Of a DNA stretch of 64,000 nucleotides, positions 17,755-36,980 are shown one piece after another. The notes under the pieces are model-generated. The model did not search any database and was not told the origin of the DNA. It was given only the letters and a program-made list of their open reading frames with translations. The stretch's first letter is position 1, and each line of letters begins with the position of its first letter. The translations under genes and the position numbers were made by a program. This DNA is from Quadrisphaera sp. (GTDB taxonomy: Bacteria > Actinomycetota > Actinomycetes > Actinomycetales > Quadrisphaeraceae), in NCBI GenBank assembly GCA_029257185.1, contig JARICT010000082.1, positions 9,100 through 73,099 on the forward strand. The letters are read 5' to 3'.

Positions 17755-18630
17755 TCAGGGGTGCAGGGCGGCGACCCTCTCCTCGACGGTCGCGGGCAAC
17801 CGGCGGCGCGCCACCAGGGCTGCGGGCAGCGCACGGACCGCTCGTCGCAGCCCTGCCCGTCCGGCGTCGGTGTCCCGCCACGCCGCGAGCGCCCGCCGTG
17901 CGACGACGGGCCACGGCCGGCGCATCACCGCGCTGAGGATCCCCGAGCGAGCGATGGCCGCGCGCCGCACCTGCGGGCTGGACCGCGACGGGGACGGGTG
18001 GTGGTGCACGACCAGCTCGGGGACGTACGCCAGTCCCCAGCCGGCGGCCAGCAGGTCCAGGGTGAGGCGCTCCTCCTCGCCGGGGAAGACCACGACGTCG
18101 TCGAAGCCCCCGGCGCGGGTGAACGCCTCGGCGCGCACGACCGCCCCGCAGGCGGCGAAGCCCACGATCGCCGGGCCGGGCATGTCCGCCTCGGTGCCCA
18201 GCGGCGCGCGTGCCAGCTCGGCGCACAGCGGCTCGAGGCGCTCCTCGTCCCCGAGGAGGATCCGGGCGTGCAGCACCGCGGCGCGCGGGTGGGCGTCCAT
18301 GAGCCCCACCGCGAGGGCCAGGGAGCCGGGCGCCCACCACGAGTCGTCGTCGGCGAAGGCCACGTAGCGCGTGCCCGCCCGGGCGACGCCGATCGTGCGG
18401 GCCGCGGCGCCGCGGTTGCGGGGCAGGGCGACCACATCGACGCCCGGGTGGGTCTCGCGGACGGCATCGGCGCTGCCGTCGGTGGAGGCGTTGTCGAGCA
18501 GGATCACCGGCGCCTCGTGGCGGCCGAGGGACTGCAGCAGCTCACCGCGGCGGTTCTGGCTGGCGACGACGACGGTGACCGCGTCGCCCAGGGCCTCGGC
18601 GGCGCGGGCGCCCTCGGGGGCAGCGGTCAT
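17755..18630 (-). CDS. glycosyltransferase family 2
   Basis: VTVVVASQNRRGELL...LLDNASTDGS...LPRNRGAAARTIG...VAFADDDSWW shows the GT-A fold with a DxD motif. The ATG at 18630 overlaps the upstream stop (ATGA). Confidence 0.8.
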   Translation of the reverse strand: MTAAPEGARAAEALGDAVTVVVASQNRRGELLQSLGRHEAPVILLDNASTDGSADAVRETHPGVDVVALPRNRGAAARTIGVARAGTRYVAFADDDSWWAPGSLALAVGLMDAHPRAAVLHARILLGDEERLEPLCAELARAPLGTEADMPGPAIVGFAACGAVVRAEAFTRAGGFDDVVVFPGEEERLTLDLLAAGWGLAYVPELVVHHHPSPSRSSPQVRRAAIARSGILSAVMRRPWPVVARRALAAWRDTDAGRAGLRRAVRALPAALVARRRLPATVEERVAALHP

Positions 18631-19607
18631 GCCACGTACCGGCGGGCCACCGAGGCGGCCTGCGGCGCTTCGAGGACGCGGAACCTCGCCTCGACGGAGG
18701 GCGCCAGGACGCGGCGCTCGCGCAGGACCCACGGCAGGCCCCGCAGCGCGTCGAGGACCCCCAGCGCCCAGGTGCGGTCTCGCCTCGCCGAGCGCGTCAG
18801 CACCGCCGCGCGCCGCGCCACCGCGGGCCACGGGCGGCGCAGCAGCAGGAACCACAGGGCGTTGCTCACGCCGTCGCGGCGCCGGCGCACCGACTCGCGG
18901 GCGACCGAGGCCCGGTGGTGGACGGTCAGCGCCTCCGTGAAGCACAGCTCCCAGCCCGCGCTCGCGAGGTCGGCCGCGAGCAGCTCCTCCTCCCCGCCCA
19001 GCCACAGCCGGTGGTCGAACCCGCCCACGGCGGTGAACGCGGCGGCGCGCACCACCGAAGCGCCGGCGAGGAAGCTGCCCAGCGCGGGCCCGGGCAGGCC
19101 GGGGCGGGCGCCGACGACGGGGGAGTCCCGCAGCTCCGCGACGATGGGGTCCTCGGTACCGGCGGGCTCGACGACGATGCGCGCGGTGAGCACGGCGACG
19201 TCCTCGTGCGCGTCGAGCAGCGCGGCGGCGCGCTCCAGCGACCCGGGCTCCCACCAGGTGTCGTCGTCGCAGAAGGCCACGTGGGGCGTGGTGGCGCGGG
19301 CCACGCCGACGTTGCGCCCCGTCGCCCCGGCGTTGTACGGCAGCGCCACCAGGTCGAGCCGCTGCCCTGCGGCCGTGAACCGCTGCCGCAGGGCGGGAAC
19401 CGTCCCGTCGGTCGACCCGTTGTCCACCACGACCACGCGCGGGCGCTCGGGCAGGTCCAGCAGGCGCGCGACCGCGCCCAGCGCCTCCTCGCGGCGCTGG
19501 TGGGTGATGAGCACGACGCTGACGCGGCCGTGGACGGCGCCGTCGCCGGGCGGCGCCGCGGTGGCCACGGAGCCCGGCTCGTCGGCGCGGTCTGTCGTCA
19601 GGGTCAT
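18627..19607 (-). CDS. glycosyltransferase family 2 (tandem paralog of 17755-18630)
   Basis: VSVVLITHQRREEAL...VVDNGSTDGT...LPYNAGATGRNVG...VAFCDDDTWW is collinear with the downstream gene. The ATG at 19605-19607 was verified. Confidence 0.8.
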   Translation of the reverse strand: MTLTTDRADEPGSVATAAPPGDGAVHGRVSVVLITHQRREEALGAVARLLDLPERPRVVVVDNGSTDGTVPALRQRFTAAGQRLDLVALPYNAGATGRNVGVARATTPHVAFCDDDTWWEPGSLERAAALLDAHEDVAVLTARIVVEPAGTEDPIVAELRDSPVVGARPGLPGPALGSFLAGASVVRAAAFTAVGGFDHRLWLGGEEELLAADLASAGWELCFTEALTVHHRASVARESVRRRRDGVSNALWFLLLRRPWPAVARRAAVLTRSARRDRTWALGVLDALRGLPWVLRERRVLAPSVEARFRVLEAPQAASVARRYVA

Positions 19608-22348: not shown

Positions 22349-22392
22349 GGGACGACCCCAGCGGCGCCGGCCGTCGGTGCCGGTCCTGCGCG

Positions 22393-23415
22393 TCAGGTCG
22401 CCAGCGACGCGACCGCGGCCACCACGTCGTCGACGGTGGTGCGCTCCAGCACCGGGTCGACGGCGTCCGCGTGGGGATCACCGGCCGGGACCATCCCCGG
22501 GCGGTGATCGCCGGGGGCCGGCCACAGCACCACGTGACGGTCGTGGTCGATCGCCGGACCCCACCGCGAGGGCGGCGTCGGCCCGAACAGCAGCACCGAG
22601 GGCGTCCGCGCGGCCGTGGCGACGTGGGCCACACCGGTGTCCCCGCAGACCAGCAGCGCCGCGCCCGCCACCGTCTCGGTCAGAGCGCGCAGGTCCAGGC
22701 GCCCGCAGCGGTCCTCGCCGGCGCGCGCCGTGACGGCGGCGCACAGCGCCGCCTCCGACGCCGTGCCGGTGACGACCACGCGGTCCCCGCCGGCGACCAG
22801 GCGCTGCGCGAGCGCGGCCCACCGGTCCGCAGGCCACCGCCGCGAGCCCGACGCGGCCCCCGGGTGCAGGACGACGACCCGCTCTTGCGACGACGCCTCC
22901 TCCTGGCGGCGGGCGAGCGCGGGCAGCACGAGGTCCTCGCGCCCGCACGGGCCACCGGCGGAGCGCACCAGGGCGCACCAGCGGTCCACCTCGTGCGCGT
23001 CGGGGTCGAGCGGGAGGCCGCCGGGGACCACCGTGCTCGCGGGCGCGACAGTCACGGCGGGGCCGAGCGCCGCCAGCGCCGCGGCGCTCTGCGGCCCGTC
23101 ACCGTGGAGGTTCATGCCGACGTCGACCGCCCGCTCCAGGCGTTCCCGCAGCTCCGGCGACGCGCGCCGCACCGCTTGGAGCAGGGCGTCCGGTGCCAGC
23201 GGCGCCAGCCCGCTGACGTCCAGCACGTCGTCGACCACGGCGTGCTCGCGCAGCAGCTCGCCCACGCTCCGCGGGCACGCGAGGACCAGGTGCGCGCCGG
23301 GGAACGCCCGGCGCAGGCCCCTCAGGGCCGGGACACCGGTGAGCGCGTCCCCGAGACCGAGCGCCCGCAGCGCGAGGACGGTCCGGACGGCGCCCGCCCC
23401 CGGCACCGCTGGCAT
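22393..23415 (-). CDS. glycosyltransferase family 9 (heptosyltransferase-type)
   Basis: VLALRALGLGDALTGVPALRGLRRAFP...VVLHPGAASGSRRWP..RW..LA..L...G..VVVTG...LLVCGDTGVAHVA.A..TPSVLLFGPT is the GT9 pattern. The ATG at 23413-23415 was verified. Confidence 0.8.
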   Translation of the reverse strand: MPAVPGAGAVRTVLALRALGLGDALTGVPALRGLRRAFPGAHLVLACPRSVGELLREHAVVDDVLDVSGLAPLAPDALLQAVRRASPELRERLERAVDVGMNLHGDGPQSAAALAALGPAVTVAPASTVVPGGLPLDPDAHEVDRWCALVRSAGGPCGREDLVLPALARRQEEASSQERVVVLHPGAASGSRRWPADRWAALAQRLVAGGDRVVVTGTASEAALCAAVTARAGEDRCGRLDLRALTETVAGAALLVCGDTGVAHVATAARTPSVLLFGPTPPSRWGPAIDHDRHVVLWPAPGDHRPGMVPAGDPHADAVDPVLERTTVDDVVAAVASLAT

Positions 23416-23432
23416 CCTTGTCGCCGGCCGGC

Positions 23433-24173
23433 TCAGGGCCAGGACGGCTCGGTCGAGACCGTGACCACCAGCTCGCGGACCTCGGTCCCGATCGGCTGGC
23501 GCAGCGCGTGCACCACGGACAGCGCCACCTGGCGGGGGTCCATGAGGGCGGCGTCGGGCCCGGGCTTGTACTGCTCGGTGCGCCCGTCGAAGAACGCGGT
23601 GCGCATGCCCGCGGGCACGAGCATCGTCACGCCCACCTGACCGGCGAGCTCGAGCTGCAGCGCCCGCGTGAGGCCGACGACGCCGAACTTCGAGGCGCAG
23701 TAGGCGCTCGCGTCCGACGCCGCCCGCAGGCCGAGGGAGGAGCCGACGGTGACCACGGTGCCGCGGGCCTGCACCAGGTGGGGCAGGCAGGCGCGCACCG
23801 CGGCGGCCGTGCCGACGAGGTTGACACCGATGACCTTCTCCCACGAGGCGGTGCCCACGTCCTCCAGGCGCCCGACGGCGTCGGTGCCCGCAGCGGTGAG
23901 CAGCGCGGTGGGCGGGCCCACCTGCTCCACGAGGGAGGCGACCGCCGCCTCGACGGCGCTCGCGTCGGAGACGTCGGCGATGGCGTGCGGACCGCCTGAC
24001 GGCGGGGCGTCGCGGTCGATGACGGCCGCGACGCCGCCCAGCGCCGTGACCACCTCGACGACCGCCGCGCCCAGCCCGGACGAGCCGCCGGTGACGTAGA
24101 CGGTCCCCAGCTCTCGCTGGGGCGCCAGCCCGAGGTCGGCCAGGGCGTCGTGCTCGGGCGCAGGGGTGGTCAT
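23433..24173 (-). CDS. classical short-chain dehydrogenase/reductase
   Basis: TGGSSGLG cofactor motif, NLVG, a YCASK (YxxxK) catalytic motif, ~246 aa. The ATG overlaps the upstream stop (ATGA at 24170-24173). Confidence 0.85.
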   Translation of the reverse strand: MTTPAPEHDALADLGLAPQRELGTVYVTGGSSGLGAAVVEVVTALGGVAAVIDRDAPPSGGPHAIADVSDASAVEAAVASLVEQVGPPTALLTAAGTDAVGRLEDVGTASWEKVIGVNLVGTAAAVRACLPHLVQARGTVVTVGSSLGLRAASDASAYCASKFGVVGLTRALQLELAGQVGVTMLVPAGMRTAFFDGRTEQYKPGPDAALMDPRQVALSVVHALRQPIGTEVRELVVTVSTEPSWP

Positions 24174-26392
24174 GCGGGTGCCTCCGTGAGGTGGTGGTCG
24201 GGTGGGGGCGCCGGCGCCGCGCCGCGCGCCAGGGTGGACGTGGTGGAGCGGCCCTCGAGGTGGGGCAGGAGGACGACCTCGCCGCCCCAGCCGCGCACCA
24301 GGGGAGCCTCGGGCAGGTCGGCGACGGCGTAGTCGCCGCCCTTGACCCACACGTGAGGACGCAGCCGGTTCAGCGCGTCGCGGGGGTCGTCCTCGTCGAA
24401 GACGAGCACCGCGTCGACGCTGCCGAGCGCGAGGAGCACCGCGGCGCGGTCGGCAGCGGTGTTCACCGGTCGCCCGGGGCCCTTGAGGCGGCGCACCGAG
24501 TCGTCGGAGTTCAGCAGCACCACGAGGGCGTCACCCAGGCGCGCGGCGCCGGCGAGCATCGACACGTGCCCGGCGTGCAGCACGTCGAAGCACCCGCCGG
24601 TGGCGACCAGGCGGCCCCCGGTCGCGCGCACCCGTGCGGCGAGCGAGGCCGCGCCGGGGCCGCCGGCCAGGTCCGACGCCGCGTCGTCGCCGTCGTGGGA
24701 CGCCCGCCCCCGGGCGCTGCCGAGGCGGACCCGCTGGCGCCACCCGCTGGCACCGCCCGCGTCCACCCACGCAGAGGCAGCGCCGACGGCGACCGCGACG
24801 GCGCTGGCGGGGTCGGCGCCGCGTGCCAGGGCGATCGCGGCGCTGGCGGCAAACCGGTCGCCGGCCCCGGCGGGGTCGCCCGAGGCCACGGGCGGCGCGG
24901 GGACGTACAGGGCGGCGTGCTCGCCGTCCTGCCCGCCATCGGGGTGCTCGCGCGCCAGGAAGGCCCCGTGGGCGCCGGCGGTCACGGCCACGGCCGCGGC
25001 GGCCCACCGCCGCTGCAGCGCGGTGCAGGCCCGCTGCGGCTCGGCGTCCGCGTCGCCCAGGACCCGTGCCCCCTCGGAGACGTTCGGGGTGACGAGGGCG
25101 CAGCCCAGCACCGGCTCGCCGCCGCGCGGGTGCGGGTCCCACACCACCGGCGCGGTCCTCGCGGCGAGCTCCAGCGCTGCCCGCACGGCCGGCTCTCTGG
25201 TGGTGCCGGCGCCGTAGTCGCTCACCAGCACCACGTCGGCGCGCTCCAGCACCTCGGCCAGCGACGCGGCGTCCACTCCCAGCGGCGCGCCGCTCCCGCC
25301 GTCGTCGAGGCGGACGAGCGACTGCCCGGCCACCCGCACGCGGGTCTTGGTGCGCGTGCCGCCGTCGTGGCCCAGCCCGTGCACCCCCACGCCGCCGCTC
25401 TCCAGCGCCGCGCGCAGGCGAGCGCCGGCGTCGTCGTCGGCCAGCGGCGTCACGAGGGTCACGCTGACGCCGGCTTCCTCGCAGAGCAGGGCGGTGAGGC
25501 CGGCGCCGCCGGGGCTCTCGTGGGTGTCGCCGACGTCGACCACGGGCACGGGCGCGTCGGGCGCGACCCGCTCGGCGGTGCCGAGCACGTCGCGGTCGAG
25601 GACCACGTCGCCGACCACGACGAGCCGCACCGCGCGGGGCCCCGGCCCAGCGGCTCTCTCGACCTCCCGCGGCGCGGGCCGGGGCCGGCGGGGCACGACG
25701 GTCGGTGAGGGCTCGTCCGCCGTCGCGGCCGTCGCGGGTATCGCGGCGGCCGCTGGTGGTGGCGCCGGGGCGTGCTCGTGACCGTCGCCGTCCAGCGCGC
25801 GGACCCGGGCGTCCACCGCCGCGCACAGCGCGTGGATCGCGACGAGGTGGCCCTCCTGCACCGCCGACGTGGTCGGTGCCTCGAGGCACAGGGCGTCGTC
25901 GCTCAGCGCGCTCAGCGGGTTCGGCCCCGGACCCGTCAGCGACCACACCGTCAACCCGTCCTCGCGGGCGCGGCGGGCGGCGGCGAGGACGTTCTCGCTG
26001 CGCCCGCTGGCGGAGAGCAGGAGGAGCACGTCGCCGGGGCGGCCGTGGGCGGCGACGCCGCGGGCGAACACGTCGTGGGCGCCGTAGTCGTTGGCGATCG
26101 CCGTGGTCGAGGACGTGTCGGCGTGCAGCGCGATCGCCGACAGCGGCCGGCGCTCGCCGACGAACCGGCCGACCAGCTCCGCGGTGAGGTGCTGGGCCTC
26201 GGCGGCGCTGCCCCCGTTCCCCGCTGCCAGGAGCCGCCCGCCGCCGGCCAGGACCGCGCCGAGGTGCGTGCCCCAGGCGTCGAGGCGCTCGCCCGCGCCG
26301 ACCAGCTGGCCGACCACGGAGCGCAGCTCGTCGGCGTGGCCGCCGAGCCAGCCGGCGGCCGGGCCGGCGCTCGCGCCCCCTCGGGCGGTCAT
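24170..26392 (-). CDS. tri-domain fusion: phosphoheptose isomerase (GmhA, SIS) + heptose-7-P kinase + heptose-1-P adenylyltransferase (HldE)
   Basis: This is a single frame with no stop. The SIS domain has GNGGSAAEAQHLTAEL and SASGRSENV. A Pro/Ala linker of ~60 aa follows. The PfkB kinase domain has VVVGDVVLD and GAGDRF. The cytidylyltransferase-fold domain has GGCFDVLHAGH and VKGGDY. The ATG at 26390-26392 overlaps the upstream stop. Confidence 0.75.
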   Translation of the reverse strand: MTARGGASAGPAAGWLGGHADELRSVVGQLVGAGERLDAWGTHLGAVLAGGGRLLAAGNGGSAAEAQHLTAELVGRFVGERRPLSAIALHADTSSTTAIANDYGAHDVFARGVAAHGRPGDVLLLLSASGRSENVLAAARRAREDGLTVWSLTGPGPNPLSALSDDALCLEAPTTSAVQEGHLVAIHALCAAVDARVRALDGDGHEHAPAPPPAAAAIPATAATADEPSPTVVPRRPRPAPREVERAAGPGPRAVRLVVVGDVVLDRDVLGTAERVAPDAPVPVVDVGDTHESPGGAGLTALLCEEAGVSVTLVTPLADDDAGARLRAALESGGVGVHGLGHDGGTRTKTRVRVAGQSLVRLDDGGSGAPLGVDAASLAEVLERADVVLVSDYGAGTTREPAVRAALELAARTAPVVWDPHPRGGEPVLGCALVTPNVSEGARVLGDADAEPQRACTALQRRWAAAAVAVTAGAHGAFLAREHPDGGQDGEHAALYVPAPPVASGDPAGAGDRFAASAAIALARGADPASAVAVAVGAASAWVDAGGASGWRQRVRLGSARGRASHDGDDAASDLAGGPGAASLAARVRATGGRLVATGGCFDVLHAGHVSMLAGAARLGDALVVLLNSDDSVRRLKGPGRPVNTAADRAAVLLALGSVDAVLVFDEDDPRDALNRLRPHVWVKGGDYAVADLPEAPLVRGWGGEVVLLPHLEGRSTTSTLARGAAPAPPPDHHLTEAPA

Positions 26393-27714
26393 CGCCGGGC
26401 CCTCCCCGACGAGGCGTGGCGCAGGGGCCCGGCGGCGACGTCCCGCCGGGCGAGCACCTCGGCGAAGGCCTCCTCCGTGGCGGCGGCCACCCGGTCCCAG
26501 CCGTAGCGCTCCACGACGCGGGCCCGTGCCGCCCGTCCGTACCGTGCGGCGAGGGTCGGGTCGGCCAGCAGCGGGGCGAGCGCCGCCGCCAGCGCCGCGG
26601 GATCGCGCGGGGGCACGAGCTCCCCGGTCACGCCGGGCGTCACGGTGTCGAGGAGCCCGCCCACGGCGCTGCCGACCACGGGGACGCCGCACGCCATGGC
26701 CTCCAGCGGCACCAGGCCGAACGGCTCGTACCAGGGGGTGGCCACGACGGCGTCGGCGCTGCGCAGCACCGCCGGCAGGTCGGCGTGGTCCACGCGTCCC
26801 ACCAGGTGCACGCGCTCGCCCACACCGAGGTCGCCGGCGAGCGCCCGGAGCCGCACCGCCTCGGGGTCGCGGCCCAGGTCCTCGCGCTCCCCGCCGCCGA
26901 CCACCACCAGCTCGGTGCCCTCGAGCACGGGCAGGGCCCGCACGATGGTGTCCACGCCCTTGCGCTCCACGAGCCTCGAGACGCTCACCAGCCGGTGGCG
27001 CAGCCCGCGAGCGGCGTCCGGTACCGGCAGCGCGCGCGGCCCGTCGGGGCAGAAGTGCTCGACGTCCACGCCGCACGGCACCACCCGCAGGGGCGCGAGG
27101 AGGTCGTCCGTGAGGCTCTCGAAGGGGTCCGAGGAGGCCACGTCCGCACCCGCGGAGGCGTCGCAGAGGACGAGGTCGACGAGCTCGGCCACCTCGTCGG
27201 TGCAGGTGGCGACCACGAGGTCCGCCTCGCGCGCCAGCGCCGCCTCCAGGCGGACGCGCACGAGCGGCGAGGAGTCGTCGTCGCCCTGGTGGCGGCGCTT
27301 GACGCTGCCGAGCGCGTGGAAGGTCACCGCGACCGGCACCCCGGTGGCGCGCCCGGCCTCCAGCGCCGCCACCCCGGACATCCAGAAGTGGGCGTGCACC
27401 ACGTCGGGCGCGAGCAGCGGGTCGGACCAGCGGCGGACCAGCTCGGCGGCGAAGGCGGGCATCCAGACGAGGAGGTCGTCCTTGGGCAGCGCCCTGGGGG
27501 GCCCGGCGTCCACGTGGACGACGTCGACGCCCGGGAGCATCGTCACGCGCTGCGCCGCGGACGCGTCGTCGCGGCGGGTGAACACCTCGACGTCGTGCCC
27601 GCGCCGCGCGAGCGCCGTGGCGAGCGCGGCGACGTGCACGTTCTGCCCCCCGGCGTCCACGCCGCCGAGCGCGGCCAGGGGGCTGGCGTGCTCGGAGACC
27701 ATCGCGACCCTCAC
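26389..27714 (-). CDS. glycosyltransferase family 4 (GT-B, MshA-like)
   Basis: VSEHASPLAALGGVDAGGQNVHV..LA.AL..RGH.V.VFT at the N-terminus, then ...SRLVERKG...PWYEPFGLVPLEAMACGVPVV (EX7E). The GTG at 27714 overlaps the upstream stop. The ATG at 27702 is an alternative start. Confidence 0.85.
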   Translation of the reverse strand: MRVAMVSEHASPLAALGGVDAGGQNVHVAALATALARRGHDVEVFTRRDDASAAQRVTMLPGVDVVHVDAGPPRALPKDDLLVWMPAFAAELVRRWSDPLLAPDVVHAHFWMSGVAALEAGRATGVPVAVTFHALGSVKRRHQGDDDSSPLVRVRLEAALAREADLVVATCTDEVAELVDLVLCDASAGADVASSDPFESLTDDLLAPLRVVPCGVDVEHFCPDGPRALPVPDAARGLRHRLVSVSRLVERKGVDTIVRALPVLEGTELVVVGGGEREDLGRDPEAVRLRALAGDLGVGERVHLVGRVDHADLPAVLRSADAVVATPWYEPFGLVPLEAMACGVPVVGSAVGGLLDTVTPGVTGELVPPRDPAALAAALAPLLADPTLAARYGRAARARVVERYGWDRVAAATEEAFAEVLARRDVAAGPLRHASSGRARR

Positions 27715-28715
27715 GGCCGTCCCGCCACGGTGTCCTCCAGGAGGTGGTCGAGGTCGCAGAGGAAGCGGGAGATGCCGAAGCGGGCCAGGGCGTGCTCGCG
27801 CGCCCCGGCCCCGCGCTCCGCCGCCTCTGCGCGGTCGGCGACCCACCGGTGGGCGGTCTCGGCGAGGACCCGGGGGTCGTTGGACAGGACGCCGGCGCCG
27901 GCGGGCACGGACTCGGGGGCGGCGGTGGTCGCGAGGGCGAGCACCGGGGAGCCGAGGGTCATGGCCTCGACGAGCGCGAGGCCGAGCGACGTCCACCGGT
28001 AGGGGTGCAGGTAGCCGCGGTGGTGCGCGAGCGCCGGGTGCAGGTCGCCCTGGGGGAGGTCCTCGACGGTGCGCCCGGCCAGGTGCGGCGCGGCGCCGAC
28101 GAGGGCGTCCATCCCCATGCCGTAGACGCCGAGAGGCACGCCGTGGCCGCCCGGCGCCGGGGCGCTGAGGGCGACGACGAGGTCGGTGCCGGCCACGCGC
28201 CACCGGCGCACGGGCTCGTTGACCACCACCGCGAAGGACTCCTGCTCCCCGGTCCAGAGCGGCCCGGGGTCCAGGACGCCGTGCTCGAGGACGTGCGTGG
28301 GCGCGCCGTCGGCGTCCCACATGACGGCGTTGAACGCGGTGACGTGCACCAGCGGCAGCACCGGCGCCCCGGCGGCGCGCTGCGCGGCGGGCATCGGGTG
28401 GACGCTGCGCGCGGCGTGCTCGGTCGGTGCGTTGTGCTCGACGTAGAGCGCCGGCACGTCAGCGCCGGCGACCAGCCCGGTCCACTCGCGCAGTAGGGCG
28501 GCCTCGTGGGGGCGCTGCAGCACCACCACGTCGGGGGGCTCGTCCGCGAGGACGTGCGGTGACACCTCGACGGCGGAGGCAGGCCAGTCCCAGGTGCGCG
28601 CGCGACCTCGCCCGTCGGGCCCTCGGGCGTCGTCCACGGGGAGGAGGTAGGTGTGGTCGCCCTGGACCAGCGAGGTGGTCCACGAGCCGTGCACGTGCCA
28701 CGACAGGACCCTCAC
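27711..28715 (-). CDS. glycosyltransferase (GT-B / GT4-like, divergent)
   Basis: The C-terminal half, YLHPYRWTSLGLALVEAMTLGSPVLAL, resembles the GT4 nucleotide-sugar binding region. The N-terminal half is divergent. The GTG at 28715 overlaps the upstream stop. Confidence 0.6.
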   Translation of the reverse strand: MRVLSWHVHGSWTTSLVQGDHTYLLPVDDARGPDGRGRARTWDWPASAVEVSPHVLADEPPDVVVLQRPHEAALLREWTGLVAGADVPALYVEHNAPTEHAARSVHPMPAAQRAAGAPVLPLVHVTAFNAVMWDADGAPTHVLEHGVLDPGPLWTGEQESFAVVVNEPVRRWRVAGTDLVVALSAPAPGGHGVPLGVYGMGMDALVGAAPHLAGRTVEDLPQGDLHPALAHHRGYLHPYRWTSLGLALVEAMTLGSPVLALATTAAPESVPAGAGVLSNDPRVLAETAHRWVADRAEAAERGAGAREHALARFGISRFLCDLDHLLEDTVAGRP

Positions 28716-29860
28716 GACGCCGCCCCCGCCAGGCTGGCGCCGCCGAGGTCCGACGGAGCGATCCCGGCCGCGAGCCGGTCCACGGCGGCGACCACCTCTG
28801 CGGGGTCCACGGCGAGGCAGGGGTGGCCGGGGACGGGGCAGTGCCGGGCCCGCGTGAGGCGGCACGGTGCGTCCTGGTCCCCGAGGACCGCGCTGGGCAC
28901 GCCGAACGGGGCCCACCGCTCACGGGGCACCACGGCGGAGAACCAGCAGGCCACGGGGGTGCCCACGGCGGCCGCCAGGTGGGCCGGGCCGGTGTTGCCG
29001 ACCACCGCGGCGCGGGCGCCGGCGAGCAGGACGGCCAGGCCCTCGAGGTCGGTGCGCCCGGAGACGTCGAGGGAGCCTGGCGCGGCGGCGCAGACGTCGG
29101 CGGCGAGGGCCAGCTCCGCCGGGCCGCCGGTGACGACCACGGCCCACCCGTCCGCCGCCAGCGCCGCGGCGGTGTCGGCGGCCACGGCGGGAGAAGGGGC
29201 GCGCGCCGGCACGGACGCGCCGGGGTGGACCACGACGTAGCCCCGGCGCTCCGGCCTCGACCCCGAGGCACGCACCACCGTGTCGAGGTCAGCGCGCAGA
29301 TCCTCCGGCAGCGGGCGAAGGCCGGCGCGCAGGGCCAGGCGGACGTCGTCGGGGCGGGGCACCGCTCGGCCGCTGGCGGCGACGAGCGCGAGGTTGGCGA
29401 CCACCTCGTGCTCGCCGCCGCTGCCGTCCGGTGCGCCGGGGCGACGGTGGCGCACGTCGAGCAGCGAGCCGGGGTAGTCCTCGCTGGCGCCCACCACGCG
29501 GGGCACCCCGGCCATGCGGGCGATCAGCGCGATCGGCAGCGGCGACTGGTGGTAGGAGGTGAAGACGACCACCTCGTCGTACGGGCGGGCGCGCAGCTCC
29601 TCGACGAGGTGCAGGAGCGCTGCGGGGTCCGGCGCGGGCGGGGCGTACCCGGCCCACGGCACGTCCGCGACCACCACGTCGTCCACCCCGGGCAGCAGGC
29701 GCGCGGCGGCGGCGCCCGCGGGCGCGGCGAGCAGGTCCACGCGTGCCGCTCGCGCGCCGTCAGGCCCGTGGCGCAGGGCGCGGACGGCAGGTCCGGTCAT
29801 GAGCACGTCGCCGTCGCTGTCGGTGCGCACCGCCAGGACGCGCAGGCCGCCGGCCGTCAT
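28712..29860 (-). CDS. glycosyltransferase family 9 (heptosyltransferase-type)
   Basis: LRVLAVRTDSDGDVLMTGPAVRAL...VVVHPGASVPARAP......L...G..VVVTGGP.E...LLAGARAAVVGNTGPAHLAAAVGTPV. The ATG at 29858-29860 overlaps the upstream stop. Confidence 0.8.
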   Translation of the reverse strand: MTAGGLRVLAVRTDSDGDVLMTGPAVRALRHGPDGARAARVDLLAAPAGAAAARLLPGVDDVVVADVPWAGYAPPAPDPAALLHLVEELRARPYDEVVVFTSYHQSPLPIALIARMAGVPRVVGASEDYPGSLLDVRHRRPGAPDGSGGEHEVVANLALVAASGRAVPRPDDVRLALRAGLRPLPEDLRADLDTVVRASGSRPERRGYVVVHPGASVPARAPSPAVAADTAAALAADGWAVVVTGGPAELALAADVCAAAPGSLDVSGRTDLEGLAVLLAGARAAVVGNTGPAHLAAAVGTPVACWFSAVVPRERWAPFGVPSAVLGDQDAPCRLTRARHCPVPGHPCLAVDPAEVVAAVDRLAAGIAPSDLGGASLAGAAS

Positions 29861-31380
29861 CGCCGGGCCGCCAGCACCAGAGAGACCGCTCCCGCCAGGT
29901 CGCGGGCGACGTGCTCCGCGGCGTCGACCTCCTCGCGGCGGGTGAGCGCGGTGGGGACGAGCACGCCCAGCGCCCCCGCGGCCTGCGCGGCGCCGACGTC
30001 CGCGCCGATGTCGCCGACGACGGCCACCCGGTCCGGGGTCAGGCCCAGCGCCGCCGCGCCCGCCAGCACCATGCCGGGGGCCGGCTTGCGGCAGGAGCAC
30101 CCGTCGTCGGCGGCGTGCGGGCAGACCTGCCAGGTGTCGAACGGCCCGACCGCGGCGTCGACGGCGGCGTTGACCGCGCCCGCCTGCTCGGCGGTGATGA
30201 GGCCCCGGCCGATGCCGGACTGGTTGGTGACCACCCCGACGGCCACGCCGGCGTCGCGCAACGCCGCGACGGCCTCGCGAGCGCCCTCGACCGGGTCCAC
30301 GAGCGCGGGGTCGCCGTTGTAGGGCACGTCGTGGACGAGCGTGCCGTCGCGGTCGAAGAGCACGCCGGCGATCTGCTGGTCCTCGCGGCTCCGGAGCGGC
30401 TGCGCGCCGCGGTGGGCCAGCTCTCCGCGCAGCCGGTGGGCCACCGCGGCGAAGGGGATGGCCGCCGACGTGGCGGTCATGACGCCGATCTCGCCCGCGG
30501 TGCGCGGGCCGGGGGCGATGCGGCGGCGTGCGAAGTCGGCGGTCAGCGCCGCCCAGGTGCCCGCCCCGGCGAGCGCGAGAGCGCGGCGCCGCGTCACGGC
30601 GGCGCCCACGGCGAGGGCCGCGGCGCCGACGGTGGCGGCGTGCCACGGCAGGCGGCCCGGCGGGGCGTGGGCGTCGGTGCGCCACGACCGGCCGTGCAGG
30701 GCGCGCATGAGGACGTCGTCGGCGTTGCCCTTCTGGACGCGCAGGCTGTGCCAGCGGTGCATCGGGCGGGTCGGGTGCAGGGTCGTCCGGGCTCCGCGCA
30801 CCAGCGCCCAGCCGGAGCGCTCGACGCGCAGCGCCAGGTCGGCGTCCTCGCGGTAGGCCCGGGGGAAGCGCTCGTCGAAGCCGCCGACGGCGACCAGGGC
30901 CTCGCGGCGGGACGCCATGTCGGCGGTCGCCCACGCCGCGCCCTCGAGGCCCTTGGTGCCGCGCTCGGCGTCGGTGGGGCGCCGGCCGGCCGGCAGCGGC
31001 ACGCTCAGACGGCCCTGCACCCCGCCGGTGCTCGGCGTCGCCCCCGCCAGGTCGGCCTCCAGGGCGAGCGCCCAGCCGTCGGGCAGCTCCACGTCGTCGT
31101 CGAGGAAGACCGTCCACGGCGCGCGGGTGGCGCGCCACCCGGCGTTGCGGGCCGCCGCGGGGCCGCGCCCCCCGCGGGGGCCGCCGGAGGAGACCACGAC
31201 GAGCGGCCACGGCGCGTCCACGCCCGTGAGGTCCAGCGGCGGGGCGGCGGCCGGGCGGTCGTCGGCGAGGACCACCCGTCCGGGAGCGCCGCCACCGTCC
31301 TGCGCGGCGAGGGTCTGGAGCAGGCGCAGCAGGCTCGGGCGTCCGATGGTCGGGATGACGACGTCGTGGACGCCACTCAC
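29857..31380 (-). CDS. fusion: glycosyltransferase family 2 + hydrophobic linker + D,D-heptose 1,7-bisphosphate phosphatase (GmhB, HAD-IIIA)
   Basis: This is one frame with no stop. The GT-A part is VVIPTIGRPSLL..LQTLAAQ...FLDDDVELPDGW. Two hydrophobic segments follow (AATVGAAALAVGAAV and GVMTATSAAIPFAAV). The GmhB motifs are VLFDRDGTLV, VVTNQSGIGRG, CPH..DDGCSCRKPAPGM and VVGDIGADV. The GTG at 31380 overlaps the upstream stop. Confidence 0.75.
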   Translation of the reverse strand: MSGVHDVVIPTIGRPSLLRLLQTLAAQDGGGAPGRVVLADDRPAAAPPLDLTGVDAPWPLVVVSSGGPRGGRGPAAARNAGWRATRAPWTVFLDDDVELPDGWALALEADLAGATPSTGGVQGRLSVPLPAGRRPTDAERGTKGLEGAAWATADMASRREALVAVGGFDERFPRAYREDADLALRVERSGWALVRGARTTLHPTRPMHRWHSLRVQKGNADDVLMRALHGRSWRTDAHAPPGRLPWHAATVGAAALAVGAAVTRRRALALAGAGTWAALTADFARRRIAPGPRTAGEIGVMTATSAAIPFAAVAHRLRGELAHRGAQPLRSREDQQIAGVLFDRDGTLVHDVPYNGDPALVDPVEGAREAVAALRDAGVAVGVVTNQSGIGRGLITAEQAGAVNAAVDAAVGPFDTWQVCPHAADDGCSCRKPAPGMVLAGAAALGLTPDRVAVVGDIGADVGAAQAAGALGVLVPTALTRREEVDAAEHVARDLAGAVSLVLAARR

Positions 31381-33029
31381 CGTCCGCCGCCGAACAGGGC
31401 GGCGCGCCGGACGAGGTGGGGCCCGAGGACGAGGGCGTCGACGGGGGCGGAGCCGAAGAGCTCGAGGGCGTCGCGCGGGTCGTCGACCATGGGCCGCCCC
31501 GCGGTGTTGAGCGAGGTGTTCACCAGCACGGGCAGCCCGGTGCGCTCCTCGAAGGCCCGCAGCAGGTCCGCGACGGCGGGGTTGGTGGTGTCGTCCACGG
31601 TCTGGATCCGAGCGGTGCCGTCGACGTGGACGACCGCCGGGATGCGCTCGCGCCACGCCGGGTCCACGTCGTGGACGAACAGCATGTAGGGGCTCGGGAT
31701 CGGGCCGCCCGAGAAGATGTCGGCGGCGCGCTCGGTGAGCACCATCGGGGCGATCGGGCGGAACTGCTCGCGACCCTTGACATCGTTCATCCGCTCGACG
31801 TTGGCGGCGTGGCCGGGGTGGGCGAGCAGCGAGCGGTACCCCAGGGCTCGCGGGCCGAACTCCGAACGCCCCGAGAACCAGGCGATCACCCCGTCGGCGG
31901 CGAGCACGTCGGCGACCTCCCCGGACAGGTCCTCCGGCGTGGTGAAGGGAACCTCGGCGCGGTCCAGCCACGCGGCCAGCGCGTCATCGGAGAAGCCCCG
32001 GCCCAGCGCCGGGCTGGCCACGGGGGTGATCTCGTCACCATGGTCGACCGCGACGCTCAGCGCGGCCCCGAGCGCCGTGCCCGAGTCCCCGGCGGCGGGC
32101 TGCACCCACACGGACTCGAACGGGGTCTCGCGCCAGATGACGGTGTTGGCGACGCAGTTCAGCGCCGTGCCGCCGGCCATCGTCAGCAGCGTGTCGCCCG
32201 TCCTGCCGTGGAGCCAGGTGGCGAGGTCGACGAGGACCTCCTGCGTCAGCGCCTGCACCGACGCCGCGAGGTCGGCGTGCTCGGGAAGCCAGTCCTCGGC
32301 GTCGGGGCTGCGCCGCGGTGCCCAGCGTGTCCAGTCCGGCTCGGGCGCGACGAAGGAGCCGTCCCCGGTGGCGTGGACGCCCTCCCGCAGCTCGGCGAGG
32401 TGGCGCGGCGTGCCGTAGGAGGCCATCGCCATGACCTTGAACTCGTCCGACGAGCGCAGAAAACCCAGGTGCTCCGTGAGGGACTCGTACAGCAGGCCCA
32501 TCGAGTGCGGCAGGTCGGTCGTCGCGAGGACGTCCAGCTTCCCGTCGGTGTAACGCCCGGACAGGTGCGAGGCGCGCTCGCCACGACCGTCCAGGACGAG
32601 GACGCTGCCGGTCGTCGACGGCCCCGCCAGCCCGCTGGAGGCCGCGTGGGCGACGTGGTGGGGGACGTGGACCACGACGCTCGGGTCCAGCCCGGGCAGC
32701 GCCGCGGCGAGGAAGCCCGGTGCCCGCTGGGCGTAGGTGGTGCGCAGGTGGTCCCAGGGGTCGTCCAGGCCCATCTCGGCGGCGTCGCGGCACAGCGCGG
32801 GGTCGTAGGCGTAGGCGACGGCGTCGAGGTCCCCGACGGTGGCGCCGGCCTCCTCCAGGCACCAGGCCATGGCGAGCTCCGGCAGCTCCCACGCGGCGAA
32901 GGGCACGGGGCGCTTGCCGTGCTTGCGGCGGCTGAAGCGCTCCTCCTCGGCGGCCGCCACCACCACGCCGTCGACCACCAGGGCGGCCGAGGAGTCGTGG
33001 AAGACCGCGTTGACGCCCAGCACCTTCAT
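31377..33029 (-). CDS. carbamoyltransferase (NodU/CmcH/TobZ family)
   Basis: MKVLGVNAVFHDSSAALVVDG.VV.AAEEERFSRRKH...HH.AHAAS...NTSLN..G.P.V is the N-terminal Kae1-like plus C-terminal YrdC-like carbamoyltransferase pattern. The ATG at 33027-33029 was verified. Confidence 0.85.
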   Translation of the reverse strand: MKVLGVNAVFHDSSAALVVDGVVVAAAEEERFSRRKHGKRPVPFAAWELPELAMAWCLEEAGATVGDLDAVAYAYDPALCRDAAEMGLDDPWDHLRTTYAQRAPGFLAAALPGLDPSVVVHVPHHVAHAASSGLAGPSTTGSVLVLDGRGERASHLSGRYTDGKLDVLATTDLPHSMGLLYESLTEHLGFLRSSDEFKVMAMASYGTPRHLAELREGVHATGDGSFVAPEPDWTRWAPRRSPDAEDWLPEHADLAASVQALTQEVLVDLATWLHGRTGDTLLTMAGGTALNCVANTVIWRETPFESVWVQPAAGDSGTALGAALSVAVDHGDEITPVASPALGRGFSDDALAAWLDRAEVPFTTPEDLSGEVADVLAADGVIAWFSGRSEFGPRALGYRSLLAHPGHAANVERMNDVKGREQFRPIAPMVLTERAADIFSGGPIPSPYMLFVHDVDPAWRERIPAVVHVDGTARIQTVDDTTNPAVADLLRAFEERTGLPVLVNTSLNTAGRPMVDDPRDALELFGSAPVDALVLGPHLVRRAALFGGGR

Positions 33030-33101
33030 GGGTGCTGTTCTATCGGAGGTGCGGCCACTCGGCACGACGAGGTGCCCGAGCGCCCCACAGGGGCCCGGGC
33101 T

Positions 33102-33127
33102 GCGACCGTGCGACGACGCACGGTCGC
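33102..33127. promoter_or_regulatory. perfect 11-bp-stem / 4-nt-loop palindrome between the heptose operon and the aldehyde dehydrogenase gene
   Basis: GCGACCGTGCG-ACGA-CGCACGGTCGC lies 73-98 nt upstream of the carbamoyltransferase ATG and ~100 nt upstream of the ALDH start. Confidence 0.4.
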
Positions 33128-36967: not shown

Positions 36968-36980
36968 AGCCCCGCTGGGC

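What the first reader, a model, noticed from the sequence alone, without database searches (positions are those of the whole stretch)
22393..33029. Translationally coupled ADP-heptose + heptosyltransferase + carbamoyltransferase operon in a genome that should have no LPS
The minus-strand gene order from 33029 down to 22393 is: carbamoyltransferase, GT2-GmhB fusion, GT9, divergent GT-B, GT4, GmhA-HldE fusion, SDR, GT9. Six consecutive junctions are 4-nt start/stop overlaps: GTGA at 31377-31380, ATGA at 29857-29860, GTGA at 28712-28715, GTGA at 27711-27714, ATGA at 26389-26392 and ATGA at 24170-24173. The last gap is 17 bp, so this is one tightly coupled unit.

All four activities needed to make ADP-D-glycero-beta-D-manno-heptose are recognisable by motif. 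These are the SIS isomerase (GNGGS / SASGRS), the PfkB kinase (GAGD), the HAD phosphatase (DRDGT, TNQSG, CPH..C.CRKP) and the adenylyltransferase (FDVLHAGH). Two family-9 GTs sit beside them, the fold used by LPS heptosyltransferases.

That chemistry is textbook Gram-negative inner-core LPS, yet everything else in the window is actinobacterial. The actinobacterial heptose uses I know of are antibiotic pathways (septacidin, hygromycin B). No NRPS/PKS, aminocyclitol or nucleoside-antibiotic genes are present here. Five GT domains plus an O-carbamoyltransferase suggest a dedicated heptose-containing, possibly carbamoylated, envelope glycoconjugate or glycolipid. I cannot map it to any characterised system. 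No flippase, polymerase or ligase gene is in the operon, so the acceptor and the final location are open.
Basis: partly seen in the sequence, partly recalled or inferred. Interest (0 to 1): 0.8.

Follow-up and report, generated by a model that had tools for sequence, protein, structure and literature searches.

The report
Actinobacterial cwg-type heptose glycan operon
The operon is real, but it is this organism's copy of a heptose-sugar gene cluster found in hundreds of actinobacterial species and named cwg ("cell wall glycan") in Streptomyces in 2002; its product is still unknown.

Summary
Eight minus-strand genes lie at 22393-33029. Six junctions are 4-nt start/stop overlaps and one is a 17-nt gap.

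The "odd for an actinobacterium" reading does not hold. The GT2-GmhB fusion protein has more than 7,000 homologues, and at least 528 species-level genomes encode it. Of 63 related loci of at least 19 kb, 25 show the identical 8-gene order.

Streptomyces rimosus carries a collinear cluster: UXS, carbamoyltransferase, GT2, HAD, GT9, GT, GT, SIS, RfaE, GT, GT. Identities to the window proteins are 45-69%. That order matches, position by position, the published annotation of the S. coelicolor sigma-E-controlled cwg operon (SCO6179-6190). I found no paper that characterises its product.

Two GT2 genes at 17755-19607 also belong to the system.

Burkholderia and Ralstonia megaplasmids carry the same module without GmhA/HldE.

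None of the ten proteins has a clear transmembrane segment, and related loci share no flippase, polymerase or exporter. The acceptor and final location therefore remain open.

Verdict: a new member of a known but uncharacterised kind, of moderate interest.

The parts
31377..33029 (-). O-carbamoyltransferase (NodU/CmcH/TobZ family), 550 aa; first gene of the unit
   Evidence: Pfam Carbam_trans_C 2.9e-64 and Carbam_trans_N 5.2e-45. PDB sequence hits: 7xb6 1e-88, TobZ 9e-84, NovN and GdmN. 66% identical to the S. rimosus orthologue from residue 1.
29857..31380 (-). Fusion of a GT2 (GT-A) glycosyltransferase, three long helices (residues 244-322) and a HAD-IIIA GmhB-like heptose-1,7-bisphosphate phosphatase, 507 aa
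   Evidence: Pfam GT2 plus HAD; NCBIfam PRK08942 GmhB 1.1e-31, 110 bits against a cut-off of 178. AF2 model pLDDT 89.8. Foldseek: GmhB 3l8e/3l8h; GT2 part matches K4CP, PcManGT 6yv7 and BcsA. These are two separate genes in S. rimosus and Burkholderiaceae.
28712..29860 (-). GT9a, a divergent family-9 glycosyltransferase, 382 aa
   Evidence: Pfam PF01075 1.4e-16, 61 bits against a cut-off of 22. Only weak PDB sequence hits to WaaC/WaaF, 7e-4. Orthologues keep the N-terminal GDVL (59/59) but carry GNTG..H where GT9b has GDTG..H and HepI/HepII have the corresponding Asp (45/59).
27711..28715 (-). GTBx, a compact GT4-like retaining GT-B glycosyltransferase, 334 aa; the most cluster-specific protein
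   Evidence: Only weak Pfam GT1 hits. AF2 model pLDDT 95.7. Foldseek top hits are GT4 enzymes: Tll1591, GlgM, BshA, SPS, PimB', MshA. 912 representatives at E<=1e-3 in 1.84 billion proteins.
26389..27714 (-). GT4 glycosyltransferase, MshA / sucrose-phosphate-synthase-like, 441 aa
   Evidence: Pfam GT4 N- and C-terminal domains. NCBIfam MshA model full length, 231 bits against a cut-off of 462. PDB: Tll1590 SPS 4e-60, C. glutamicum MshA 3e-45 (3c4q), PimB'.
24170..26392 (-). Trifunctional GmhA (SIS isomerase) - HldE (PfkB heptose-7-P kinase + heptose-1-P nucleotidyltransferase), 740 aa
   Evidence: NCBIfam HldE 5e-82, rfaE_dom_II 2.9e-50, gmhA 6e-41, all below their equivalog cut-offs. PDB: GmhA 5i01 1e-35, NTase 5x9q, kinase 4e84. 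GmhA is a separate gene in 37 related loci and fused in about 8. The motif G-R-STT is present.
23433..24173 (-). Classical short-chain dehydrogenase/reductase, 246 aa; substrate unknown, not HldD-like
   Evidence: Pfam adh_short 1.7e-30. Present in 48 of 63 long loci. 33-34% identical orthologues sit next to the HAD gene in Burkholderia and Ralstonia. Absent from the S. rimosus cluster.
22393..23415 (-). GT9b, a HepI/HepII-like family-9 glycosyltransferase, 340 aa; last gene of the coupled unit
   Evidence: Pfam PF01075 3.6e-26. PDB: WaaF 1psw 8.6e-11, WaaC 1.9e-10. The alignment shows equivalents of HepI D13, D261, T262 and H266, with K192 replaced by Arg. GDTG..H in 41/45 orthologues.
18627..19607 (-). 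GT2c, a family-2 glycosyltransferase belonging to the same system. The start is uncertain: the longest ORF reaches 19775 but would overlap the DUF2795 gene
   Evidence: Pfam GT2 1.2e-20. 52% identical to the last gene of the S. rimosus cluster. 46% identical to the GT2 beside the Burkholderia module. Start candidates listed.
17755..18630 (-). GT2d, a family-2 glycosyltransferase, overlapping GT2c by 4 nt
   Evidence: Pfam GT2 2.6e-17. 45% identical to the gene that follows HldE in S. rimosus. Lies within 10 kb of the cluster in 23 of 63 long loci.

Best explanation
This is the local version of the actinobacterial cwg-type glycan operon. The organism's closest named relatives are Quadrisphaera and Pseudokineococcus.

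[quoted passage not shown] No HldD epimerase is present, so the D,D-heptose is the likely form.

Inferred: about seven non-processive glycosyltransferases assemble a hetero-oligosaccharide at the cytoplasmic face. They are GT4, GTBx, GT9a, GT9b, the GT2 domain, and GT2c and GT2d nearby; all appear soluble or at most peripherally membrane-bound. GT9b, and perhaps GT9a, add heptose. The TobZ-type enzyme O-carbamoylates a sugar hydroxyl using carbamoyl phosphate and ATP. The SDR modifies one sugar.

Unknown: the acceptor. An envelope glycolipid or wall-linked glycan is favoured, because the Streptomyces operon is a direct target of the envelope-stress sigma factor sigma-E.

Shown here: gene content, domain identities, conservation, and collinearity with the Streptomyces cluster. 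Not shown: any chemistry, any transcription, or the location of the product.
For: Domains and motifs.

Conservation:
- 7,206 homologues of the GT2-GmhB fusion at E<=1e-10.
- At least 528 species genomes, spanning Actinomycetes, Acidimicrobiia, Thermoleophilia, Nitriliruptoria and Euzebyales.
- 25 of 63 long loci have the identical 8-gene order, and 54-63 of 63 hold each core gene.

Collinearity with S. rimosus:
- The annotated order is UXS, carbamoyltransferase, GT, HAD-IIIA, GT9, GT, GT, SIS, rfaE2, GT, GT.
- Identities to the window proteins are 45-69%.
- The GTBx orthologue is at least 84% identical in all 120 top hits, nearly all from Streptomyces.

Match to cwg: the published annotation of SCO6179-6188 reads dehydratase, transferase, transferase, 'dehydratase', transferase, (6184 not listed), transferase, phosphoheptose isomerase, bifunctional synthase/transferase, transferase. 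cwgE is called a putative heptosyltransferase. This is the same order.

Regulation in Streptomyces: cwg is a ChIP-seq and S1-validated sigma-E target induced by vancomycin. It also responds to salt and cold.

Link between heptose supply and the GT module: the Burkholderia and Ralstonia modules lack GmhA/HldE. These are Gram-negative bacteria, which make ADP-heptose for LPS (general knowledge, not checked in these genomes).

GT9b keeps the HepI catalytic and donor residues.
Against: - No S. coelicolor sequence could be compared. cwg identity rests on S. rimosus collinearity plus annotation words.
- All heptose-pathway matches fall below NCBIfam equivalog cut-offs.
- GT9a orthologues have Asn where HepI has Asp261, so one 'heptosyltransferase' may use another donor.
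- The HldE motif G-R-STT is the feature reported to allow CDP- and UDP-heptose synthesis, so the nucleotide may not be ADP.
- None of the ten proteins has a convincing transmembrane segment.
- No initiating phosphoglycosyltransferase, flippase, polymerase, ligase or exporter is shared by the 80 related loci. This fits poorly with a classical wall polymer.
- Burkholderiaceae keep the HAD gene. As Gram-negatives they would be expected to have a housekeeping GmhB (not checked), which hints that the phosphatase has another substrate.
- I found no report of heptose in actinobacterial envelopes.
Confidence: 0.7

Rival explanations
1. The product is not a wall polymer but a soluble (or only lipid-tethered) cytoplasmic glycoside or oligosaccharide. 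The MshA/sucrose-phosphate-synthase-like GT4 would start it on a phosphorylated small acceptor. The HAD phosphatase would dephosphorylate it. The other GTs would extend it and the carbamoyltransferase would cap it. It would be a stress protectant or cofactor-like molecule, in the style of mycothiol, sucroglucans or mycobacterial polymethylated polysaccharides.
For: - GT4's best solved relatives act on phosphorylated soluble acceptors: SPS Tll1590 4e-60 and MshA 3e-45.
- GTBx's best structural match is Tll1591, the sucrose-extending enzyme encoded next to Tll1590. Other top matches are BshA, GlgM and an MMP mannosyltransferase.
- No transmembrane proteins or exporters are conserved.
- Burkholderiaceae keep the HAD gene next to the GTs.
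- Stress-linked neighbours recur: DUF2795, BON domain proteins and sigma-54 regulators.
- The Streptomyces operon responds to salt and cold, and a Frankia heptosyltransferase responds to salt.
Against: - Foldseek scores for GT4-fold enzymes are nearly flat across many families, so acceptor type cannot be read from them.
- The GT2 domain carries three long helices resembling membrane-associated GT2s such as PcManGT and BcsA.
- GT9 enzymes of known function act on lipid-linked or protein acceptors.
- Sigma-E control in Streptomyces points to the envelope.
- The HAD domain's best matches are genuine GmhB enzymes.
Confidence: 0.2
2. The GT9 enzymes O-heptosylate proteins, as the TibC/Aah autotransporter heptosyltransferases do. 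The cluster would then be a protein-glycosylation system.
For: GT9b gives a faint hit to the TibC/Aah model TIGR04414, E=0.0011. NDP-heptoses are known donors for protein glycosylation.
Against: - The score is 18 bits against a cut-off of 200.
- GT9b aligns far better with WaaC and WaaF.
- No target protein gene is conserved beside the cluster.
- Seven GTs plus a carbamoyltransferase imply a complex glycan, not single heptoses.
Confidence: 0.05
3. It is a specialised-metabolite gene cluster for a heptose-containing antibiotic of the septacidin or hygromycin B type, or a recently acquired Gram-negative LPS-core fragment.
For: Trifunctional or bifunctional heptose enzymes occur in such pathways. 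TobZ, NovN and GdmN, the closest solved carbamoyltransferases, are antibiotic-tailoring enzymes.
Against: - Conservation in at least 528 species across several classes, with fixed gene order, is unlike a natural-product cluster.
- No PKS, NRPS, aminocyclitol or nucleoside genes occur anywhere in the window. The flanks are housekeeping genes: hisG, glnA, lipA/lipB, nrdAB, pta-ackA.
- Cluster GC is 0.78-0.80 and GC3 is 0.94-0.98, matching the host.
- There are no Kdo or lipid A genes.
Confidence: 0.03

Closest known systems
Streptomyces coelicolor cwg operon (SCO6179-6190, cwgA-L; 'putative cell wall glycan'; Hong, Paget & Buttner 2002)
   Same: The S. rimosus orthologous cluster holds the same proteins in the same order: carbamoyltransferase, GT2, GmhB, GT9, GTBx, GT4, GmhA, HldE, then two GT2s. 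The published cwg annotation order matches position by position.
   Different: In the window:
- GT2+GmhB and GmhA+HldE are fused.
- A classical SDR and a second GT9 close the operon.
- The UXS-like first gene (cwgA) is absent from the whole window.
- The two terminal GT2 genes are separated from the rest by a DUF2795 gene and an EAL-GGDEF gene.

Sigma-E control is unknown here. The cwg product itself has never been characterised in any paper I could find.
Gram-negative LPS inner-core heptose pathway (GmhA, HldE, GmhB, HldD; WaaC/WaaF/WaaQ)
   Same: The same four enzyme activities and the GT9 fold are present. GT9b keeps the HepI catalytic Asp and the D-T-G..H donor motif.
   Different: - There is no HldD epimerase and no Kdo or lipid A genes.
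- Every match is below its equivalog cut-off.
- GT9a is very divergent and has Asn in place of HepI Asp261.
- The host is a monoderm.
Uncharacterised homologous module on Burkholderia multivorans and Ralstonia wenshanensis megaplasmids
   Same: The module holds SDR, HAD-IIIA, GT9, carbamoyltransferase, GT2, GT9, GTBx, GT4, a further GT2 and a UXS-like gene. Identities to the window proteins are 29-47%.
   Different: It has no GmhA or HldE in the locus. It adds a PIG-L deacetylase and an adjacent large ABC transporter, and in B. multivorans also sigma-54 activators and BON-domain proteins. I found no literature on it.
Actinomycete heptose natural-product pathways (septacidin, hygromycin B) and the isomerase/kinase/nucleotidyltransferase subgroup of heptose nucleotidyltransferases (Tang et al., Science 2024)
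   Same: The fused GmhA-HldE architecture is a described subgroup. The Arg in G-R-STT is the reported promiscuity determinant.
   Different: No nucleoside or aminocyclitol genes are present. The cluster is a conserved core-genome operon, not a sporadic biosynthetic cluster.
TobZ / NovN / GdmN O-carbamoyltransferases
   Same: Full-length homology at 1e-70 to 1e-89, with both Pfam domains.
   Different: Those enzymes tailor antibiotics. Here the substrate is presumably a sugar of the glycan, and it is untested.

Membership tests
[quoted passage not shown] | All four activities are present: SIS isomerase, PfkB heptose-7-P kinase, HAD-IIIA 1,7-bisphosphate phosphatase, and heptose-1-P nucleotidyltransferase | tested here: met
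   Domain hits: gmhA 6e-41, rfaE_dom_I 1.5e-40, rfaE_dom_II 2.9e-50, GmhB PRK08942 1.1e-31. Solved relatives. Motifs read directly from the translations.
[quoted passage not shown] | Scores reach NCBIfam equivalog cut-offs, which would give curated assurance of the same function | tested here: not met
   Scores against cut-offs: HldE 276/521, rfaE_dom_II 170/181.5, gmhA 140/209, rfaE_dom_I 139/345, GmhB 110/178. Function is therefore inferred, not assured.
[quoted passage not shown] | The nucleotide carrier is ADP | not testable with these tools
   The G-R-STT motif is reported to permit CDP- and UDP-heptose synthesis. An enzyme assay is needed.
Glycosyltransferase family 9 (heptosyltransferases) | Pfam PF01075 match above the gathering score | tested here: met
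   GT9a 61 bits and GT9b 92.4 bits, against a cut-off of 22.
Glycosyltransferase family 9 (heptosyltransferases) | HepI-type catalytic and donor residues are present. The residue roles (D13, K192, D261, H266 of E. coli WaaC) are recalled from the literature, not looked up here | tested here: inconclusive
   GT9b has equivalents of D13, D261, T262 and H266, with K192 replaced by Arg. GT9a orthologues have the N-terminal GDVL but GNTG..H, i.e. Asp replaced by Asn. The donor sugar is untested.
Streptomyces cwg operon | Same gene set and order as the Streptomyces cluster | tested here: met
   S. rimosus locus L081 is collinear with 45-69% identity.
Streptomyces cwg operon | Sequence orthology to SCO6179-6190 themselves | not testable with these tools
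The link rests on annotation order.
Streptomyces cwg operon | Sigma-E-type promoter (AAC ... CGTCT) and induction by envelope stress | tested here: inconclusive
   No obvious match was seen by eye in the 198-nt upstream region. The sigma-70 scan found nothing. The regulon of this organism is unknown.
NodU/CmcH/TobZ O-carbamoyltransferases | Both Pfam domains are above threshold, with full-length similarity to solved members | tested here: met
   The NodU equivalog itself is not met: 194 bits against a cut-off of 1000.
Classical wall-polysaccharide pathways (Wzx/Wzy or ABC-dependent) | An initiating phosphoglycosyltransferase, flippase or ABC exporter, polymerase or ligase lies in or beside the cluster | tested here: not met
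   None is found among families shared by the 80 loci. The window's ABC exporter pair has no counterpart in them. There are no strong transmembrane segments.
Natural-product biosynthetic gene cluster | Core scaffold genes and patchy distribution | tested here: not met
   No such genes are in the window. The cluster is conserved in at least 528 species.

The most novel reading that the evidence does not exclude
The module shared by Actinomycetota and Burkholderiaceae may make an undescribed class of heptose-containing, O-carbamoylated oligosaccharide. It would be assembled wholly in the cytoplasm, without a polyprenol carrier. Two forms fit the evidence. One is an LOS-like glycolipid built directly on a membrane glycerolipid of a monoderm. 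The other is a soluble stress-protective glycoside, started on a sugar phosphate by the MshA/SPS-like GT4 and released by the HAD phosphatase. Either way, the 2002 label 'cell wall glycan' would be wrong or incomplete.
Probability: 0.25. Interest if true: 0.75.

Novelty: new member of a known kind. Interest (0 to 1): 0.35.

Why it matters
The cluster is one of the most widely conserved glycan operons in Actinomycetota with no known product. It is core in Streptomyces, where envelope damage switches it on.

Identifying the product would have three consequences:
- It would add a component to the textbook picture of the monoderm actinobacterial envelope, or to stress physiology.
- It would explain why Gram-positives make nucleotide-heptoses, which are innate-immune agonists.
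- It would give a function to homologous modules on Burkholderia and Ralstonia megaplasmids.

This particular window adds no new principle. Its value is as one more well-defined example, with informative gene fusions.

Tried and rejected
1. Source organism. The 100%-identical GTBx protein P0121 has no gene record in the look-up of encoding contigs.

2. Finding S. coelicolor itself.
- The representative search plus cluster look-ups returned only Herbiconiux, Microlunatus or unnamed members.
- A search with the S. rimosus orthologue listed 120 hits, nearly all Streptomyces, but not S. coelicolor.
- Hong et al. 2002 is not held in the library.

3. Regulatory signals.
- No sigma-70-like promoter or intrinsic terminator lies in 22000-33400.
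- No Rfam family, for example a c-di-GMP riboswitch, lies in 17000-35000.
- No sigma-E-like motif was seen by eye upstream of the first gene.

4. Candidate exporter. The ABC pair at 11988-15850 is not conserved next to the cluster in any of the 80 loci, so I do not count it as a part.

5. Horizontal transfer from a Gram-negative. Rejected on composition and deep vertical conservation.

6. Natural-product cluster. Rejected (see rivals).

7. ORF-caller artefacts. Two apparent 'families', F17 and F18, were antisense artefacts of my own ORF caller.

8. Clavibacter plasmid hit. It holds only a truncated remnant.


Full report
**1. Observation**

The window is 67-80% G+C. On the minus strand between 22393 and 33029 there are eight ORFs with third-position GC of 0.94-0.98.

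The last junction is a 17-nt gap.

Pfam and NCBIfam give the following products, in order:

| Gene | Coordinates | Product |
|---|---|---|
| CarbT | 31377-33029 | carbamoyltransferase (both domains) |
| GT2-GmhB | 29857-31380 | GT2 + HAD-IIIA/GmhB |
| GT9a | 28712-29860 | family-9 GT |
| GTBx | 27711-28715 | weakly GT1/GT4-like protein |
| GT4 | 26389-27714 | family-4 GT |
| GmhA-HldE | 24170-26392 | SIS + PfkB + cytidylyltransferase-like |
| SDR | 23433-24173 | classical SDR |
| GT9b | 22393-23415 | family-9 GT |

One qualification applies. Four-nucleotide overlaps occur at 13 of 27 same-strand junctions in this window, 7 of them outside the cluster. The coupling is normal for this genome.

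**2. Boundaries**

Upstream lies a divergent aldehyde dehydrogenase gene at 33228-34649. Downstream, GT9b converges on an EAL-DICT-PAS-GGDEF gene.

The real start of that gene is the ATG at 19979. A small DUF2795 gene occupies about 19734-19931 in another frame.

Beyond it, two GT2 genes lie on the minus strand: GT2c at 18627-19607 and GT2d at 17755-18630. They overlap by 4 nt. Section 4 shows that they belong to the system.

The rest of the window is housekeeping:
- hisG, glnA, lipA/lipB, nrdAB and pta-ackA
- sugar ABC importers and two ABC exporter pairs
- a TagF-like gene

There are no PKS, NRPS or aminocyclitol genes.

**3. Conservation**

The GT2-GmhB fusion has 7,206 homologues at E<=1e-10 among the 8,000 candidates scored. 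Named top hits are Quadrisphaera, Pseudokineococcus, Cellulomonas, Cellulosimicrobium, Kribbella, Georgenia and others, at 60-70% identity.

They span Actinomycetes, Acidimicrobiia, Thermoleophilia, Nitriliruptoria, Euzebyales and a Dormibacteraeota MAG.

I ran tblastn of the window proteins against the 80 loci fetched. Results for the 63 loci of at least 19 kb:
- Another 10 have the order without carbamoyltransferase and SDR (Geodermatophilaceae).
- 6 have GTBx inverted upstream (Nocardioidaceae and Intrasporangiaceae).
- 6 are split into two sub-clusters (Amycolatopsis).
- Each core gene is present in 54-63 loci.

Clustering my own ORF calls from these loci gave further detail:
- GmhA is usually a separate gene (37 loci). 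It is fused to HldE, as here, in about 8.
- A UDP-glucuronate-decarboxylase-like gene sits beside the cluster in 41 loci.
- A UDP-glucose-dehydrogenase-like gene sits beside it in 17 loci.

Neither of the last two is present in this window. No transporter, flippase, polymerase or ligase family is shared.

**4. Link to a named system**

Literature searches led to the S. coelicolor cwg operon, SCO6179-6190. [quoted passage not shown] It is a direct sigma-E target induced by vancomycin (PMC6767563). It also responds to salt (PMC13011467) and cold.

Its published annotation reads (PMC5839063):

| Gene | Published annotation |
|---|---|
| cwgA | nucleotide-sugar dehydratase |
| cwgB, cwgC | transferases |
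| cwgD | 'dehydratase' |
| cwgE | transferase |
| cwgF (SCO6184) | not listed in the source table |
| cwgG | transferase |
| cwgH | phosphoheptose isomerase |
| cwgI | bifunctional synthase/transferase |
| cwgJ | transferase |

cwgE is called a putative heptosyltransferase in PMC5882110.

I could not fetch S. coelicolor DNA. However, tblastn of GTBx against PLSDB hit a Streptomyces rimosus replicon. Its annotated region reads UDP-glucuronic acid decarboxylase family, carbamoyltransferase, glycosyltransferase, HAD-IIIA, GT9, glycosyltransferase, glycosyltransferase, SIS, rfaE2, glycosyltransferase, glycosyltransferase.

All window proteins map onto it in order:

| Window protein | Identity to S. 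rimosus |
|---|---|
| CarbT | 66% |
| GT2 domain | 53% |
| GmhB domain | 69% |
| GT9a | 52% |
| GTBx | 54% |
| GT4 | 52% |
| GmhA domain | 67% |
| HldE domain | 51% |
| GT2d-like | 45% |
| GT2c-like | 52% |
| GT9b-like (upstream) | 39% |

This order equals the cwg annotation position by position. The 'dehydratase' cwgD is explained if it is the HisB-like HAD phosphatase.

The GTBx orthologue is at least 84% identical in all 120 top hits, nearly all from Streptomyces. The cluster is therefore core to that genus.

I conclude that the window holds the cwg orthologue. This is a strong inference, but it is not a direct test against SCO sequences.

No paper in the searchable library characterises the cwg product.

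**5. Beyond Actinomycetota**

Of the 20 PLSDB records hit, 14 are Burkholderiaceae megaplasmids.

The B. multivorans locus holds, in order, SDR, HAD-IIIA, GT9, carbamoyltransferase, GT, GT9 and GTBx. Nearby are a GT2, a PIG-L deacetylase, a UXS-like gene and a GT4 orthologue. Also nearby are sigma-54 activators, BON-domain proteins, a DUF2795 gene and a large ABC transporter.

The Ralstonia wenshanensis locus has them as one string: ABC, hypothetical, GT4, SDR, HAD, 'waaF', carbamoyltransferase, GT2, GT9, GTBx and an extended SDR. A GT2 and a PIG-L gene lie on the opposite strand.

Neither locus has GmhA or HldE. As Gram-negatives, these hosts presumably already make ADP-heptose for LPS; I did not check their genomes for this. 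That supports the view that GmhA-HldE in the actinobacterial operon exists to feed the GT module.

The retained HAD gene is a small puzzle. It may mean that the phosphatase has a second or different substrate.

**6. The individual enzymes**

- **GT9b** aligns with WaaF and WaaC. It keeps the equivalents of HepI D13, D261, T262 and H266, with K192 replaced by Arg.
- **GT9a** is much more distant. Its orthologues consistently have GNTG..H instead of GDTG..H. Its donor is less certain.
- **HldE** carries G-R-STT, as do 32 of 48 orthologues. According to a commentary on Tang et al. 2024 (PMC11461863), that Arg confers CDP- and UDP-heptose synthesis. The same source lists isomerase/kinase/nucleotidyltransferase fusions as a known subgroup.
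- **GT2-GmhB** model (pLDDT 89.8) shows a GT-A domain, three long helices (244-322) and a GmhB-like HAD domain. Foldseek matches GmhB structures. For the GT2 part it matches K4CP, the membrane mannosyltransferase PcManGT and BcsA. Only the first helix is uncharged (mean hydropathy 1.44). No protein in the system has a clear transmembrane segment.
- **GTBx** model (pLDDT 95.7) is a compact GT4-type GT-B fold. Best matches are Tll1591, GlgM, BshA, SPS, PimB' and MshA.
- **GT4** is closest in sequence to sucrose-phosphate synthase Tll1590 and to MshA. Both act on phosphorylated soluble acceptors.
- **The carbamoyltransferase** is a full-length relative of TobZ, NovN and GdmN.
- **The SDR** is a classical 246-aa enzyme, not the extended-SDR epimerase HldD. 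D-glycero-D-manno-heptose is therefore the likelier form (inference).

**7. Interpretation**

The best-supported reading (0.7) has four steps:
1. The operon makes nucleotide-activated heptose in situ.
2. About seven non-processive cytoplasmic glycosyltransferases build a hetero-oligosaccharide containing heptose.
3. The oligosaccharide is O-carbamoylated and modified by the SDR.
4. The acceptor is unknown.

An envelope destination is favoured only by the Streptomyces regulation data.

The main rival (0.2) is a soluble or directly lipid-tethered product started on a phosphorylated acceptor. It rests on the SPS/MshA-like GT4, the Tll1591-like GTBx, the absence of any export machinery, and stress-related neighbours.

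Protein heptosylation (0.05) and a natural-product or horizontally acquired LPS fragment (0.03) are poorly supported.

**8. Novelty and verdict**

The surprise premise is not valid. The cluster is ancestral in the phylum, annotated (generically) in hundreds of genomes, and named in the model streptomycete.

What remains open is the chemistry of the product, which is a real and long-standing gap. This window does not make that question more tractable than the Streptomyces operon already does.

I rate it a new member of a known but uncharacterised kind, with interest 0.35. The most novel reading not excluded is an undescribed cytoplasmically assembled heptose glycoconjugate shared with Burkholderiaceae. 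I give it about 0.25.

Noticed in passing
window 19734-19931 (+): A small DUF2795 gene (Pfam 9e-21) lies between GT2c and the EAL-GGDEF gene. It overlaps the longest-ORF versions of both, which fixes their real starts. DUF2795 genes also lie beside the homologous clusters in S. rimosus (L081 643-837), B. multivorans (L082 23918-24217) and several Amycolatopsis loci (L063, L069, L073). This is a recurrent but not universal neighbour.
   Followed up: partly
window 19979-22348 (+): An EAL-DICT-PAS-GGDEF (c-di-GMP turnover) gene is wedged between the two parts of the cwg-type system, convergent with GT9b. tblastn with it found no counterpart in any of the 80 related loci at the thresholds used. 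Its position may hint at local c-di-GMP control.
   Followed up: partly
L082 (B. multivorans NZ_CP020399.1) and L083 (Ralstonia wenshanensis CP076412.1): Burkholderiaceae megaplasmids carry the whole GT / carbamoyltransferase / HAD / SDR module without GmhA/HldE. It sits with a PIG-L deacetylase and a large ABC transporter; the B. multivorans locus also has sigma-54 activators and BON-domain proteins. Fourteen of the 20 PLSDB hits are Burkholderiaceae. No literature was found.
   Followed up: partly
window 11988-15850 (-) and 6079-9857 (+): Two pairs of type-I ABC exporter genes (ABC_membrane + ABC_tran). The pair at 11988-15850 lies 2 kb beyond GT2d and is 35% identical to the ABC transporter beside the Burkholderia module. 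No such genes flank the cluster in the 80 actinobacterial loci.
   Followed up: partly
window 9865-10764 (-) and 16025-17593 (-): Two paralogous proteins carry a GmrSD_C nuclease-like domain and a C-terminal Excalibur calcium-binding domain. The larger one also has a B_lectin (mannose-binding lectin) domain.
   Followed up: no
window 51873-53834 (-): A TagF-like CDP-glycerol glycerophosphotransferase is fused to a MobA-like nucleotidyltransferase domain. This suggests the organism also makes a teichoic-acid-type polymer.
   Followed up: no
window 36929-38263 (+): A protein with a bacterial archaeo-eukaryotic release-factor family 2 (baeRF2) domain lies next to an O6-methylguanine methyltransferase-like gene and a 2'-5' RNA ligase family gene.
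   Followed up: no
window 42001-46000 and 54001-58000: Two stretches of lower G+C (0.67-0.70 against about 0.75) coincide with the nrdAB ribonucleotide reductase genes and a sugar ABC importer operon.
   Followed up: no
related loci L001-L080: UDP-glucuronate decarboxylase-like genes (41 loci) and UDP-glucose dehydrogenase-like genes (17 loci) are frequent neighbours of the cluster. This suggests xylose or glucuronate in the glycan. Both are absent from this window.
   Followed up: partly
protein P0138: A record named 'Streptomyces sp. NP160' has a GTBx protein 69% identical to the window's. That is far closer than genuine Streptomyces orthologues (54%), so the strain is probably misnamed and related to Kineosporiales.
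   Followed up: no
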